Source of the DNA: Cetorhinus maximus
Lineage: Eukaryota
NCBI RefSeq assembly: GCF_964194155.1
Contig: NC_135901.1
Location: 25,792,001-25,856,000, forward strand
Direction of reading: 5' to 3'
DNA length: 64,000 nucleotides
In this document: positions 5,470 to 59,734 of the stretch, piece by piece
How the letters are laid out: the number at the start of each line of letters is the position of its first letter
Position numbering within the stretch: position 1 is the first letter of the stretch
Notes under the pieces: generated by a model
Databases searched by the model: none
The model's input: only the letters and a program-made list of their open reading frames with translations
What the model was told of the DNA's origin: nothing
Position numbers and translations under genes: made by a program

Positions 5470-6062
5470 AGTCAAACATGAAGTCACTAGTGTGTCAGAA
5501 GGTGGGATGAGCGAGTCCCTTCCCACAAGTGGAATTCTTAAACAGCCATAGCCTGGTGTAAGATCATTGGTGTGCCAACAGGTTGGAAGATTGGCTGAAT
5601 TCCTTCCCATACATTAAAGGGCCTCTCCGTGGAGTGAACTCACTGTTGTGCCAGCAGGTTGACTGACAGAATGAATCTCTTCCCACAAATGGAGCAGATG
5701 GATCTACCCTGTGTGTGCTCACTGGTGGGTATCAAGTTCAGTGAGTGAACTTCCCACTGACAGAACATATGAATGGCCTCAACCCACTGTGGCTGCACGC
5801 TTTCACAAAATCTCATCTACTGTCGTGATTATATAGTTCATCACCAGTCTGGTAACAGTTGGCCATCATCAGCTTGGATGATCAATTTAAGCCTCACACT
5901 GATATCTGAAACCTTTCCCACAGACAGAATAGACAAATGTTTCTCCTTCCACATTCAAGGGCCGATGATCGTCAGGACCCGATGAATCGAGTGACTATAT
6001 CAGATTTTGATGTTATGTTTGGTTTGTGTTTGCTATCTGCAAATCCTCCCTACTAATCCCCT
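5470..6062 (-). pseudogene. Highly decayed C2H2 zinc-finger pseudogene (copy A)
   Basis: Reverse strand shows remnants of TGTGGGAAGGGA/CACCAGTGAG finger codons. The family leader exon lies at ~5930-6062 and the family 3'UTR at 5320-5470. Confidence 0.75.
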
Positions 6063-6335
6063 ATAAAAGGAGATTACAAAAATACATTACTGTGAGCGAG
6101 GAGTAGAAATCCAGAACTGTCAATTTTAGTTGTCATGGAACATCCTTCTCCCTCGCAAACGACAAATCTCTGTCCCCCCACACACTCCCTTCTCCCTATT
6201 GATTGTAACCTTAATTCATCCAATTATCCTCCTCCTGCTTTTCTCCCAATTCTCCTCCCCAGAAGGTGCTGACTCTCAGGTTCAGTTTCACACTCACTTA
6301 TTGTCTTTCACAATATGTCACCCAGGTGTTTCAAA

Positions 6336-6445
6336 TCTTCGTTGAAGAAGAGCCATATTGGACTCAAAATGTTAACTCTGTTTCATTTTCCACACATGTG
6401 GCCAAGCCTTGTGATTGTCTGCAAAACTTTCAATTTTTATTTTAG
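6336..6445 (+). mobile_element. Old degenerate PLE hammerhead+tail fragment
   Basis: TTGAAGAAGAGCCATATTGGACTCAAAATGTTAACTCTG is a decayed copy of the motif at 1130-1170. Confidence 0.6.
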
Positions 6446-6539
6446 TCAAAATCTTTACGCCTGAAGCTGACAAACTATTTGAACAGACTGAGGTCACTGC
6501 GCCCTCCACTCCCATTTTTCATCCTAGTCCCAGGAGTTT

Positions 6540-6836
6540 GGAAGCTGAGCTCCGGATGAGTAATGGCGGCTGCAGCCCCCACAAGTCCTCGCGCTGGGGA
6601 AACCGCTCAATCCATCGAGCGGACGGGCGACCCGGGACTGCGCATGTCTAACGGAGCGGGAAATTGCGCATGTGCCAAAGAGAGCCCATCCCACCTACTT
6701 GCTGAGGTTCGGTCCAATGGGAAGAGTTGGAGGACCGGAAGAACGCTGGTCCTCCAGTCAATCAGCGCGTACTTTGTGACAATGAAGATTGAGCTTCACA
6801 GCCTGAAACTTCCTCCTGTGTCCAACATCTGTGAGT
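6540..6836. promoter_or_regulatory. CpG-rich, probably bidirectional promoter and first exon of ZNF copy B
   Basis: YY1-like TAATGGCGGC, two NRF1-like TGCGCATG, CCAAT at 6714, ETS CCGGAAG at 6735, splice donor GTGAGT at 6831. Paralogous to 25390-26210 in reverse orientation. Confidence 0.7.
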
Positions 6837-55804: not shown

Positions 55805-57740
55805 CGGTATTTGTATAACATGATTAATGTAATAAAACGTCCCAAGGTGCTTCAGAGGAGTTGCATAAAGAAAAAAATGGCACTGAGTTACATAGAGCGA
55901 AATTAGGGTATATGGGCAAAAGCGTGATTGGAGAGGCAGATTTTAACAAGCATCTTTAATCAGGAGAGTGGTGGAGAGGTTTAGGGAGGGAATTTCAGAG
56001 TTTCACATTTAGGCACTGTCACCAATGTGGGAATAATTAAAATCAGGGATGCTAAAGAAGCCAGAATGAGCAGATATCTCAGGGTTCTGCAACTGGAGAT
56101 TACTGAGAGAGGGAGGGATGAAGTTATGGAGCGATTTGAAAACAAGGATGGAAATTTTAAAATCAAAGCATTGCTTGATCAGGAGCCAATGTAGGTCAGC
56201 GAGCACAGTGGTGATGAGTGAACAGGACTTCTTTATTTCATTCTTTCACATGACGAGGATGTCACTGGCAAGGTCAGTATTTGTTGACCATCTCTAATTG
56301 TTACCCTTGAACTGAGTGGCTTGCTAGGTCATTTCAGAGGGCATTTAAGAGTCAACCATATTGCTGTGGATCTGGAGACACATGTAGGTCAGACCAGGTA
56401 AGGATGGCAGATTTCTATCCCTGAAGGGCATTCGTGAACCAGATGGATTTTTAAGACAATTGACGATAATTTCATGGCACCATTATTGATATTAACTTTC
56501 ATACAAACAGACACAAACATTTTCTGTCTCACTCAGGTCAGTGTATCTATGTATAAATACTATTGGGAAATTTATTGCAAATATCTGGAAGGTTGTGTGG
56601 AATGTGGGAATTGGACCCATGTTCCCAGGTCATAAGCCTTGGCCTCTGGAATACTAGTCCAGTGACATTACTACTATGCCTCTATCTCCCTTCCATTTAG
56701 GGTGAGAAAGCACATGGACACCAGAGTTTAGGATGGTCTCACATTTCCTGCTGTGGGGAGAGGGCTGGGCGAATGTGAGAGGCTGGCCAGGAAGCATTGG
56801 AATCGTCAAGTCAAGTCATGGGTATGAGGGTTTCAGCAGCAGATGAGCTGGGGTGAGGTAGAGACAGACGATGTTATGGAGATTGAAATATCTGGTATGA
56901 GTGATTATGTGGATATGTAGCTCGAAATTCATCTTGGGGTCAAATCTGACACCAAGGTTGTGAAGAGTGTGGTTCAGCCTCAGACAGTTCCCAGGGAGAG
57001 GGATGGACTCGATAGTTCGGGAACGGAATTTGTAGCGGTGACTGAAGACAATGGCTTTGGTCTTTCCAATTTTTAATTGTAGGAAATTTCTGCTCATCCA
57101 GTACTGGATGTCGGATAAACAGTTTGATAATTTAGCTACAGTGGAGGAATGAAGAGGGATGGTGGTGAGGTCAGTGTAGATGTGAAAACTAACATGGTGC
57201 ATTTGAATGATGTCGCCTAGTGGCAGCATGTAGATGAGAAATAGGAAGGGCCAAGGATTGATCCTTGGGGGACACCAAGTTCAAGGACTTTGGAGAGGAA
57301 AGGAAGGTTGGAGATGGGATGGTAGTTTGGAAAGACAGTGGAGTCAAAGATAGTTTATTTTAGGATGGGTGATGATGGTGGATTTCAAGGTGAGAGGGAC
57401 AGTATCAAAAGAGGAAGACGACTGTTAACAATATGAGCTAACATGGAGAAATTGGATGGTCAGCAGTTTGGTGAGAATAGGGTCAACAGAGCAGAATATA
57501 GGTCTTATGGACAAGATGAGCACTAAGAGAGCATGAGGGGATATGGGAGAGAAGCTGGAGAAAGATGTGAGTTCAGGACTTGGGCAAGGGGGAACTTCAG
57601 AGACAGTTTTTCCCAGTGGTTTAGTGAAAGGGAGGAAAGCAGCAGAGGCAGCTGATCAGATTGTCTCAATCTTAGTGACAAAGAAGCTCCATGAACTCCT
57701 CACACTTGTTGTTGGATTGAGGATGAAGGAGACAGGGGAG
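55805..57740 (-). mobile_element. L2 LINE (internally deleted) with a nested SINE at ~56232-56690
   Basis: 'LADLHWLLIKQCFDFKI' and 'CLSDIQYWMSRNFLQLKIGKT...NLGVRFD'; the SINE belongs to the 14108 family, minus strand. Confidence 0.85.
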
Positions 57741-57952
57741 AGGGAGAGCACTCCAAAAGAAACTAACTTTTGTTAGAGATATTGAGAAGATTCAACACAC
57801 TGTGTGTTTAATACAAAGCTGATTTATTTGTCTTTCATACAGAATATTAACCCCTATAACTGGGCTACAATTTATTATCATCAGTGGAAACAGACCCCAA
57901 TGAACAGGGTTCAGTCCTGGATCTGATTAACAGCAAAATCTCATCACTGTAG

Positions 57953-59075
57953 TTACATGTGAACTCACTGGTGTTTCTGCAGGGTGGATACCTGAGTGAA
58001 TCCCTTCCCACACTCGGAGCAGGAGAATGGCCTCTCCCCGGTGTGAATCCATTGGTGTACAGGTGAGGTTAGATGATGTTTTAAACCCAGTCCCACAATG
58101 AGAGCACCTGAATGGTCTCTCCCCAGTGTGAACTCGCTGGTGAACAATAAGGTCAGCTGATCACCTGAACTGGGACCTGCAGTCAGAGCAGCTGAATGGT
58201 CTCTCATCAGTGTGAACACGTTGATGGGACATCAGTTCCTGGGAACTTTTAAAGCACTTCCCGCAGTCTGAGTATTTAAAAGGTCTCTCGTCAGTGTGAA
58301 CCCGCTGGTGTGTCAGTAGGTGGGATGATCGAGTGAATCCCTTCCCACACACAGTGCAGGTGAACGGCTTCTCCCCAGTGTTAACTCGCTGGTGTACAGT
58401 GAGGTCAGATGATTGCCTGAACCCAGTTCCGCAGTGAGAGCACCTGAACAGTCTCTCATCAGTGTGAACACATTGATGGGACATCAGTTCCCTGGAAATT
58501 TTATAGCACTTCCTGCAGTCTGGGCATTTAAAAGGTCTCTCCTCAGTGTGAACTCGCCGGTGTGCCATGAGATGGGATGACTCAATTAATCCCTTTCCAC
58601 ACTCGGAGCAGGTGACTGGCCTCTCCCCAGTGTGCATTCGCTGGTGTACAGTGAGTTGAGATGGTCGCCTGAACCCAGTCCCACATTGAGAGCACTTAAA
58701 TGGTCTCTCATCAGTGTGAACATATTGATGGGACATCAGTTCCCAGGAACTTTTATAGTACTTCCCACAGTCTGGACATTTGAAAGGTCTCTCTCCAGTG
58801 TGAACTCGCTGGTGTATCAGTAGGTGGGAAGAATGAGTGAATCCCTTTCCACACTCGGAGCAGGTGAACGGCCTCTTCCTGCTGTGACTGCATTCGTGAA
58901 TTTCCAGCTCAGGCGGGTAACTGAATCCTTCTTCACAGTTCCCACATTTCCCCAGTTCCACCCCACTGTGACTGCACTTGTGTCTCGACAGGCCAGATGT
59001 TTGGCTGCAGCCTCATACACACACAGAACGCATGTATGTTTTCTCTCCGCTGTGAATGGTGCCTTTTCCTTCCAT
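57953..59075 (-). pseudogene. C2H2 zinc-finger pseudogene (copy J)
   Basis: Acceptor at 59176, ATG at 59075, TGA at codon 21, a 266-codon open finger stretch (58161-58961), then a further stop and frameshift. Confidence 0.88.
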
Positions 59076-59734
59076 ATTCAAAATCTGATGATATTCAGAT
59101 TACAATAAATTGGGCGACTCTGTCAAATCCCGATGTGATGTTTGGTTTGAACTCCCCAACTCCCCTTCTAATACTCTGTGAAATTGATTTAAAATGGAAA
59201 AAAAAGGGAGGGAGAGAGAATCCACAAAAACACAAAGGCAGGTTGTGAAATTGAGCTGAATGAACCTGGTAATTTGTGGGGCCGGCACCAGGAAAAAGTG
59301 ACCATGAAAACTGCTGGATTGTCATAAAAACCCAACTGGTTCACTAATGTCCTTCAGAGAAGGGAACCTGCCTCCCAGTCTGAGCCAACACAAGACTCAG
59401 GACACTGTGGGAAAAGGGAAAGAGAGATGGTGGTGGGAGAGGTAAGTGCCTGGGAGAGGGATTTTATATATCTACAACTTGGCCAGAACTTTTACAGAAT
59501 CTCCCAAACCCTCAACCTCCACCTCCTAGAAGGACCAGGGTAGCAGGTGTATGTGAACACTATCACCTACAAGTTCCTCTTCCAGTCTTACACCATCCTG
59601 GCTTGTCTGACATTCAGTACTGGGTGAGAAGAAATTTCCTCCTTTTTAATATTGGAAAGACCGAAGCCATTGTCATCAGTCCCTGATACAAACTCCATTC
59701 CCTGGCCACCGATTTCATCCCTCTCCCTGAAAAC

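What the first reader, a model, noticed from the sequence alone, without database searches (positions are those of the whole stretch)
5470..59175. KRAB-less tandem zinc-finger gene cluster in birth-and-death evolution
Seen: about ten paralogous single-coding-exon ZNF loci in 64 kb share promoter, intron-end block, leader and 3'UTR. Only two have long open arrays, and the helix residues differ between paralogs. No KRAB, SCAN, ZAD or BTB-like sequence is recognisable. Established: KRAB-ZFP clusters that repress TEs are characteristic of sarcopterygians and tetrapods; other lineages have independent ZNF expansions. Inference: a lineage-specific, probably chondrichthyan, counterpart with an unknown effector mechanism.
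Basis: partly seen in the sequence, partly recalled or inferred. Interest (0 to 1): 0.72.

Follow-up and report, generated by a model that had tools for sequence, protein, structure and literature searches.

The report
Headless shark zinc-finger gene chromosome
This window is one slice of a shark-type chromosome that likely carries thousands of duplicated zinc-finger genes whose old front ends are blocked by stop codons, so they are predicted to make bare DNA-gripping proteins with no silencing domain; whether they police transposons is untested.

Summary
Observation largely confirmed. The window holds ten C2H2 zinc-finger loci plus an orphan leader; two have long open arrays. It lies in a family spanning contig C24 (65 Mb) of G000 (177 loci in 1.34 Mb sampled) and is itself a >70-kb duplication present four times, with different genes dead in different copies. 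No KRAB, SCAN, BTB or ZAD was found here. The stronger result is structural: in both main subfamilies, family-wide stop codons sit just before a start codon inside the finger exon (0 of 85 type-A and 2 of 31 type-B leaders open), so upstream exons cannot add a domain. The leader is a fossil reading frame; one stop recurs in a sawshark gene model. Intact copies are under purifying selection (zinc ligands dN/dS about 0.08). Base-contact residues are frozen between surviving young duplicates (0.06) yet diverge fast among older paralogues. Splicing, targets and mechanism are untested; transposon repression remains inference. Large shark ZNF counts are already in a published supplement, and this scan noted the same family in other windows of this genome. 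New variant of a known kind.

The parts
5298..6197 (-). Locus A: decayed relic (3' block, remnants of fingers, leader, intron end), head-to-head with locus B
   Evidence: no intact finger
6488..6830 (+). CpG-rich promoter and predicted non-coding exon 1 of locus B; fossil ATG at 6,782; donor GT at 6,831
   Evidence: CpG o/e 0.71 vs 0.33 window-wide; splice site predicted, not seen in RNA
6904..6953 (+). Predicted 50-nt non-coding exon 2, centre of a block kept 97.5% alike among 90 paralogues
7649..7810 (+). Type-A intron-end block ending in the predicted acceptor AG
   Evidence: (AG kept in 78 of 85)
7811..8168 (+). Fossil leader: acidic linker plus three dead fingers, family stops TAA 7,958 and TGA 7,970; now predicted 5' UTR
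8169..9233 (+). Locus B open frame, 354 aa, starts MEKPWKC inside a former finger linker; 12 fingers, then a frameshifted tail
12754..13887 (-). Locus C, type A, frameshift after finger 1; open (6 fingers) in two other copies of the duplication
17637..17879 (-). Orphan intron end and leader start, no fingers
23343..24707 (-). Locus D, type A, stop in finger 2; open (9 fingers) in two other copies
25382..26234 (.). Divergent pair of promoter arms (minus arm leads to D; the plus arm's gene was not assigned)
31861..33579 (+). Locus E, type-B-like, broken
34808..35662 (+). Locus F, decayed
39399..40399 (+). Locus G, type B; open frame 39,497-40,255 (253 aa, starts MEGE, 7 canonical fingers, frameshift before the last finger)
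47650..48692 (+). Locus H, broken
52454..55102 (+). Locus I, type B, 15 fingers in several frames, frameshift right after the start
57802..59727 (-). Locus J, type B, stop soon after the start

Best explanation
These are members of a chromosome-wide shark family of zinc-finger genes whose ancestral front end is closed by shared stop codons, so intact copies are predicted to make proteins of fingers only, which likely bind specific DNA sequences, probably in repeats or transposons, and likely act by occupying those sites rather than through a KRAB-like domain. Steps. (1) SHOWN: new genes arise by large segmental duplications and die by stops and frameshifts. (2) SHOWN in sequence: the finger exon opens with a fossil frame with family-wide stops, and a start codon in good context lies inside that exon (MEKPWKC in type A, MEGK in type B). 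(3) INFERRED: translation starts there; splicing was not seen in RNA. (4) SHOWN: intact copies are under purifying selection, including base-contact residues in young duplicates. (5) SHOWN: specificity changes by gain, loss and replacement of whole fingers; faster amino-acid change at helix positions is suggested, not proven. (6) INFERRED: targets are transposons or other repeats, by analogy with KRAB- and FiNZ-type families. (7) SPECULATIVE: the conserved non-contact face of finger 1 docks a partner protein.
For: Leaders: 0 of 85 type-A leaders open; the last stop present in 76 of 85 and the ATG in 76 of 85; 271 indels (38 in multiples of three) in 364 leader nt against 19 in the first 150 coding nt. 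Type B: 2 of 31 linkers open in frame. In 55 open type-A genes an in-frame stop lies a median 36 nt before the ATG with no pyrimidine-rich acceptor after it; 52 of 55 have six residues before finger 1 and 35 of 55 end one residue after the last finger. Selection: zinc-ligand core dN/dS 0.08 (95% CI 0.03-0.16) in 14 close open pairs; base-contact residues 1 change in 356 sites, dN/dS 0.06, P 3e-5, in all five both-open pairs from the four-copy duplication. Diversification: 55 of 55 distinct fingerprints; whole-finger gain and loss; omega 2.4 at positions -1, 3, 6 of fingers 1-2 across 48 genes and about twice the divergence of four-fold sites. Finger 1 positions +1, +2, +5 have omega 0.11. Turnover: a >70-kb segment in four copies at about 93-94% identity with different genes open in each. 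Analogy: ZNF number tracks retroelement number and FiNZ knockdown derepresses transposons (PMC10547256, passages).
Against: No target, binding or expression was shown. Close open pairs pooled give helix dN/dS 1.07 (CI 0.20-1.84), not above 1. The omega of 2.4 is reached by 1 of 20 random six-codon sets from the non-coding leader, so the model P value (4e-5) is too optimistic, and finger swapping can inflate it. Frozen contact residues in the window's own duplicates fit stable targets as well as an arms race. The core estimate is biased low by the finger pattern used to pick sites: broken pairs still give 0.26. The spliced leader carries a mean of 4.6 upstream ATGs, which could lower translation of the array. 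82 of 137 type-A loci are not fully open. 35 of 189 loci fit neither subfamily and their starts were not analysed.
Confidence: 0.55

Rival explanations
1. The proteins are indeed bare finger arrays, but their targets are not transposons: they regulate host genes as passive transcription factors, or bind RNA.
For: Contact residues are frozen between surviving duplicates, as for a stable target. C2H2 fingers can bind RNA or protein (recalled; protein binding also in the abstract of PMC12774644). The shared, near-invariant 5' block suggests co-ordinated expression.
Against: Thousands of short-lived genes with all-different fingerprints resemble the transposon-tracking families more than stable regulators; variation concentrates at the DNA-contact positions -1, 3, 6.
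Confidence: 0.25
2. The field is mostly duplication-driven bulk: copies spread by rearrangement and selection only weeds out harmful proteins, with no specific job for most genes.
For: 60% of type-A loci are broken, 8 of 10 in the window; whole 70-kb blocks are copied with their transposons; pooled helix dN/dS is near 1.
Against: Frameshifts are about six times rarer per base in the array start than in the leader; zinc ligands and, in young pairs, contact residues are strongly constrained; the family's leader is found across distant sharks.
Confidence: 0.12
3. A hidden effector is added by unseen splicing, stop read-through or RNA editing, so the real protein includes an N-terminal domain.
For: The predicted exon 1-exon 2-exon 3 path is in frame with the array; exon 2 is 97.5% alike among paralogues; some shark gene models include the linker; the linker shows omega 0.71 rather than 1. 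Splicing was not observed.
Against: Four stops lie on that path in the family majority; leader indels ignore the frame (233 of 271 not multiples of three); no codon-position pattern in exon 1, exon 2 or the linker; no acceptor after the last stop; a sawshark gene model ends at the same stop.
Confidence: 0.08

Closest known systems
Cyprinid FiNZ-ZNF genes on zebrafish chromosome 4q (Wells et al. 2023, PMC10547256; passages and parts of the supplement read)
   Same: Lineage-specific family of hundreds of tandem C2H2 arrays concentrated on one chromosome, no KRAB, array in one exon, variable base-contact residues.
   Different: FiNZ genes carry a conserved 28-aa domain in an upstream coding exon; here upstream exons are cut off by stops. 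FiNZ knockdown derepresses transposons; nothing of the kind is shown here.
KRAB zinc-finger gene clusters of lobe-finned fish and tetrapods
   Same: Clustered birth-and-death by segmental duplication, single finger exon with TGE[KR]P linkers, finger gain and loss, 9-11 fingers per gene.
   Different: No KRAB exon, so no known route to TRIM28; the only clear KRAB matches in the genome belong to PRDM9-like genes on C34.
KRAB-less poly-ZF expansions of fugu and zebrafish (Emerson and Thomas 2009, PMC2604467; passages read)
   Same: Same finger pattern and spacing; lineage-specific expansion without KRAB; change focused on positions -1, 3, 6.
   Different: That work did not show how the N-terminus was lost; here a fossil frame with shared stops and an internal start codon records it, and the scale is larger.
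PRDM9-like genes of the same genome (G000:C34, about 9.1-9.4 Mb)
   Same: Tandem C2H2 array in one exon with variable helix residues.
   Different: They carry KRAB and PR/SET exons and a different finger unit (TGERPYKCTDCGKSF against [15 protein letters not shown]).

Membership tests
Tandem C2H2 poly-ZF genes (PF00096) | Four or more C-X2-C-X12-H-X3-H fingers joined by 7-residue linkers | tested here: met
KRAB-ZFP | KRAB box encoded upstream and joined to the array | tested here: not met
   No PF01352 match on C24 (150 of 152 candidates scored) or in 251 window frames, control positive; stops block any upstream exon
KRAB-ZFP | Clustered birth-and-death evolution | tested here: met
KRAB-ZFP | Recruits TRIM28/SETDB1 and deposits H3K9me3 on targets | not testable with these tools
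   No binding or chromatin data; one B-box search could not tell TIF1 paralogues apart
FiNZ-ZNF | N-terminal FiNZ domain in an upstream coding exon | tested here: not met
   No upstream exon can join in frame. A FiNZ profile itself was not available and was not run
FiNZ-ZNF | Concentration on one chromosome | tested here: met
   49 of 56 exact type-A motif hits on C24, 7 on high-numbered contigs; 99 of the first 100 listed type-B hits on C24
FiNZ-ZNF / KRAB-ZFP | Positive selection at base-contact positions | tested here: inconclusive
   omega 2.4 across 48 genes but within the upper tail of a non-coding control; 1.07 in close pairs; 0.06 in the youngest pairs
FiNZ-ZNF / KRAB-ZFP | Binds and represses transposable elements | not testable with these tools
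   No motif predictor, transposon library or ChIP data on hand
SCAN-, BTB- or ZAD-ZNF | SCAN, BTB or ZAD domain in the same protein | tested here: not met
   None in 251 window frames; 150 of 4,987 genome-wide SCAN candidates scored, none on C24
PRDM9 / PRDM7 | PR/SET domain and PRDM9-type finger unit | tested here: not met
   No SET family in window frames; finger unit differs from the C34 PRDM9-like arrays

The most novel reading that the evidence does not exclude
Sharks run a transposon-defence system of more than a thousand effector-free zinc-finger proteins, created once when stop codons decapitated an ancestral gene early in shark history; the fixed face of finger 1 replaces KRAB as the docking site for a silencing complex, and a homogenised 5' module keeps the whole chromosome's genes under one control.
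Probability: 0.2. Interest if true: 0.8.

Novelty: new variant of a known kind. Interest (0 to 1): 0.5.

Why it matters
Every well-studied vertebrate zinc-finger expansion linked to transposon control carries an N-terminal domain (KRAB, FiNZ, KRAB-like). Here sequence alone shows a very large family that lost its front end and has still been kept under selection. That makes an open question testable: can bare finger arrays silence or block targets, and was that the state before effector domains were added or after they were lost? The shared start sequences allow one family-wide knockdown, and the four-copy duplication gives natural live and dead versions of the same gene.

Tried and rejected
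RNA evidence: no RNA holder listed as such for window 6,400-9,400. Contigs of four runs guessed to be RNA were laid at 80% likeness; paralogues swamped the tables and none of the 15 joints shown (928 not shown) was a splice joint. A second laying on the 5' region gave no result, so splicing is untested. Spread as single mobile units: rejected, the duplicates are >70-kb segments that include flanking repeats. Origin from PRDM9: prompted by skate PRDM9-like hits, rejected on finger unit and missing SET. Structured RNA in the conserved 5' block: fold z-score 0.26, no Rfam match in the window. A living relative of the fossil linker: no hit among longer proteins (weak evidence); 3 hits among 1.84 billion representatives, two shark-like and one ankyrin-repeat protein taken as chance; Pfam gave no non-finger family over the linker in 6 gene models. 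PDB search with finger 1 returned only generic fingers. TIF1-type B-box search found two loci, not informative on TRIM28. A first dN/dS run scored openness too strictly and was replaced. Literature: eight searches found no paper describing this shark family's gene structure; the library lacks most subscription papers, and supplement files 3-5 of PMC10547256 and the bioRxiv supplements were not seen.
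Full report
WHAT IS THERE. A six-frame scan gave 74 loose finger matches, nearly all in nine arrays, and profile searches added a tenth, fully decayed locus and an orphan leader. Only locus B (8,169-9,230, 12 fingers) and locus G (39,497-40,255, 7 canonical fingers) are open from the family start codon; both end in a frameshifted tail. Between the loci lie LINE reverse-transcriptase remnants.

SCALE. The window is G000:C24:25,792,001-25,856,000 in a 3.99-Gb genome. 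Exact family motifs occur 173, 268, 483 and 56 times, reversed controls never; of the 56 fully listed hits 49 are on C24 (0.9-64.6 Mb) and 7 on high-numbered contigs. Seven contiguous samples (1.344 Mb) hold 177 loci, 59 scored open. Spot samples of 10 kb held fingers in 7 of 9 places from 1 to 31 Mb and 1 of 11 beyond, so density is uneven. Extrapolating the sampled density over 31 Mb alone gives about 4,000 loci and over 1,000 open genes; this is inference from samples chosen in rich regions. The family-specific leader was found only in sharks: gene models of basking shark, horn shark, smooth-hound, catshark and sawshark.

BIRTH AND DEATH. At least 70 kb covering most of the window (about -19 kb to +53 kb) occurs three more times on C24, inverted, at about 93-94% identity. 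Different genes survive in different copies: C and D are dead here but open in two other copies, B is open here and in one other, G here and in one other. Among 137 non-redundant type-A loci 55 are fully open.

NO KNOWN EFFECTOR. Pfam found no KRAB, SCAN, BTB, ZAD or SET in 251 of 277 window frames of 70 aa or more; the 26 omitted overlap finger arrays; a control frame hit KRAB. A genome-wide KRAB search gave three clear matches on C34 and a weak one on C22, none on C24. The C34 loci are PRDM9-like, with PR/SET exons and a different finger unit. SCAN matches are abundant genome-wide (150 of 4,987 candidates scored, none on C24); from recall these are mostly LTR-element gag remnants.

WHY NO EFFECTOR CAN BE SPLICED ON. 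The finger exon begins with a leader whose family majority reads as an acidic linker and three fingers interrupted by three stops, followed by an ATG inside a former finger linker. Of 85 type-A leaders none is open; the stops are present in 61, 65 and 76 of 85 and the ATG in 76. Leader indels number 271 in 364 nt, 38 of them multiples of three, against 19 in the first 150 coding nt. Predicted exons 1 and 2 join this frame in phase and add a fourth stop, so the whole 5' path is a fossil protein front end. It shows no codon-position pattern and omega 0.7-0.8 against 0.18 in living linkers. Type B, the more numerous class by motif count, starts at MEGK behind two stops of its own; 2 of 31 linkers are open in frame. 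In 55 open type-A genes the last in-frame stop lies a median 36 nt before the ATG with no pyrimidine-rich acceptor after it; 52 have six residues before finger 1 and 35 end one residue after the last finger. A sawshark gene model runs through the linker and ends at the second type-A stop, and loose-end consensus sequences from contigs of other organisms carry two of the stops (table 7; RNA status is a guess), which suggests the decapitation is old. The splice sites are predictions; no RNA joint was seen. 35 of 189 loci fit neither type and were not analysed for starts.

SELECTION. In 14 close pairs with both genes open, dN/dS is 0.08 (0.03-0.16) at zinc ligands and core, 0.46 in linkers and 1.07 (0.20-1.84) at helix positions -1, 3, 6; 28 broken pairs give 0.26, 0.70 and 0.77, so part of the core signal is filter bias or past selection. 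The pooled helix value hides two regimes. In all five both-open pairs from the four-copy duplication the contact residues changed once in 356 sites (dN/dS 0.06, P 3e-5). Other pairs differ mainly by whole fingers gained, lost, repeated or replaced. Across 48 of the 55 open type-A genes (those with canonical first two fingers), a codon model gives omega 2.4 at -1, 3, 6 of fingers 1-2 (finger 2 alone 3.3), and these positions diverge about twice as fast as four-fold sites. But 1 of 20 random six-codon sets from the non-coding leader reached that omega, so positive selection is suggested, not established. Finger 1 keeps a fixed signature (W before the first Cys, P+1, S+2, E+5; omega 0.11) while its contact positions vary.

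A SIDE RESULT. The predicted exon 2 is 97.5% alike among 90 paralogues, against 74% at four-fold sites and 78-80% in the leader; identity decays smoothly over about 200 nt on each side, and exon-2 divergence stays at 2-3% whatever the leader divergence. Gene conversion or strong selection on a regulatory element could each give this; I could not separate them. No RNA structure or Rfam family supports an RNA element.

MECHANISM. The best reading is a family of finger-only, sequence-specific DNA binders renewed by segmental duplication and finger shuffling. Conserved contact residues show that specificity matters. With no effector, the simplest action is site occupancy; a partner docking on finger 1 is possible but untested. 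Transposon targets are inferred from analogy only.

WHAT IS KNOWN. Wells et al. 2023 (PMC10547256; passages, a supplement search and one part of the code file) do not mention sharks in the main text, but their supplement lists ZNF ORF counts of 3,586 (small-spotted catshark), 1,851 (white shark), 1,223 (thorny skate) and 475 (elephant shark), so the expansion itself is on record. Emerson and Thomas 2009 (PMC2604467; passages) describe KRAB-less poly-ZF expansions in fugu and zebrafish. PMC11603059 (passages) reports KRAB-like and FiNZ domains binding TRIM33 in ray-finned fish and only PRDM9 in whale shark. The whale shark paper notes KRAB families as lost in cartilaginous fish (PMC8455134; passages). 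A shark and ray tandem-duplicate survey does not mention zinc fingers (10.1101/2025.06.08.657570; passages and one section). PMC12774644 and PMC11620358 were seen as abstracts only. Eight searches found no description of this family's gene structure. Earlier notes of this scan on other windows of the same genome reach similar readings; they are unchecked leads, and the fossil leader was noted here before they were read.

VERDICT. Real, large and functional at the protein level; it works like a KRAB- or FiNZ-type expansion in its turnover but is a member of neither. New variant of a known kind; interest 0.5, higher if bare arrays prove to silence transposons.

Noticed in passing
G000:C34:9.11-9.41 Mb (L121-L136): A cluster of three PRDM9-like genes with KRAB, PR/SET exons and open 5-10-finger arrays, plus further SET and finger fragments; the only clear KRAB matches in the genome.
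   Followed up: partly
window 6,790-7,100: 5' block centred on the 50-nt exon is far more alike among paralogues (97.5%) than any coding part; many copies sit as inverted pairs about 600 nt apart around shared promoters.
   Followed up: partly
window 46,790-47,123: A 63-nt unit repeated 5.3 times, containing a GTGAGT donor-like site and matching a single-copy block at 6,251-6,298 upstream of locus A; it may be an amplified piece of a 5' exon boundary.
   Followed up: partly
window 1,076-1,180; 25,813-25,960; 50,821-51,269: Palindromes formed by inverted pairs of one abundant short repeat; two of them interrupt or flank promoter regions.
   Followed up: no
window 14,766-15,245 and 19,295-19,813: Open frames that look, from recall, like a GIY-YIG endonuclease of a Penelope-type element and an integrase fragment; Pfam gave no match at E 0.01.
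   Followed up: no
window 32,600-33,400; 53,300-54,300; 58,100-58,900: Type-B arrays reuse a fixed finger pair ([10 protein letters not shown]... followed by CSHCGTGF...) with an extra cysteine, giving 168-, 252- and 336-nt periodicities.
   Followed up: no
L198, L199, L201, L202 (C24 2.3, 4.3, 9.1, 14.6 Mb): Four 13-finger type-B genes with identical leader and N-terminal translation several Mb apart, pointing to another very recent long-range duplication.
   Followed up: no
genome-wide: 4,987 SCAN-domain candidates scattered over most large contigs, likely an abundant LTR retrotransposon family (recalled).
   Followed up: no
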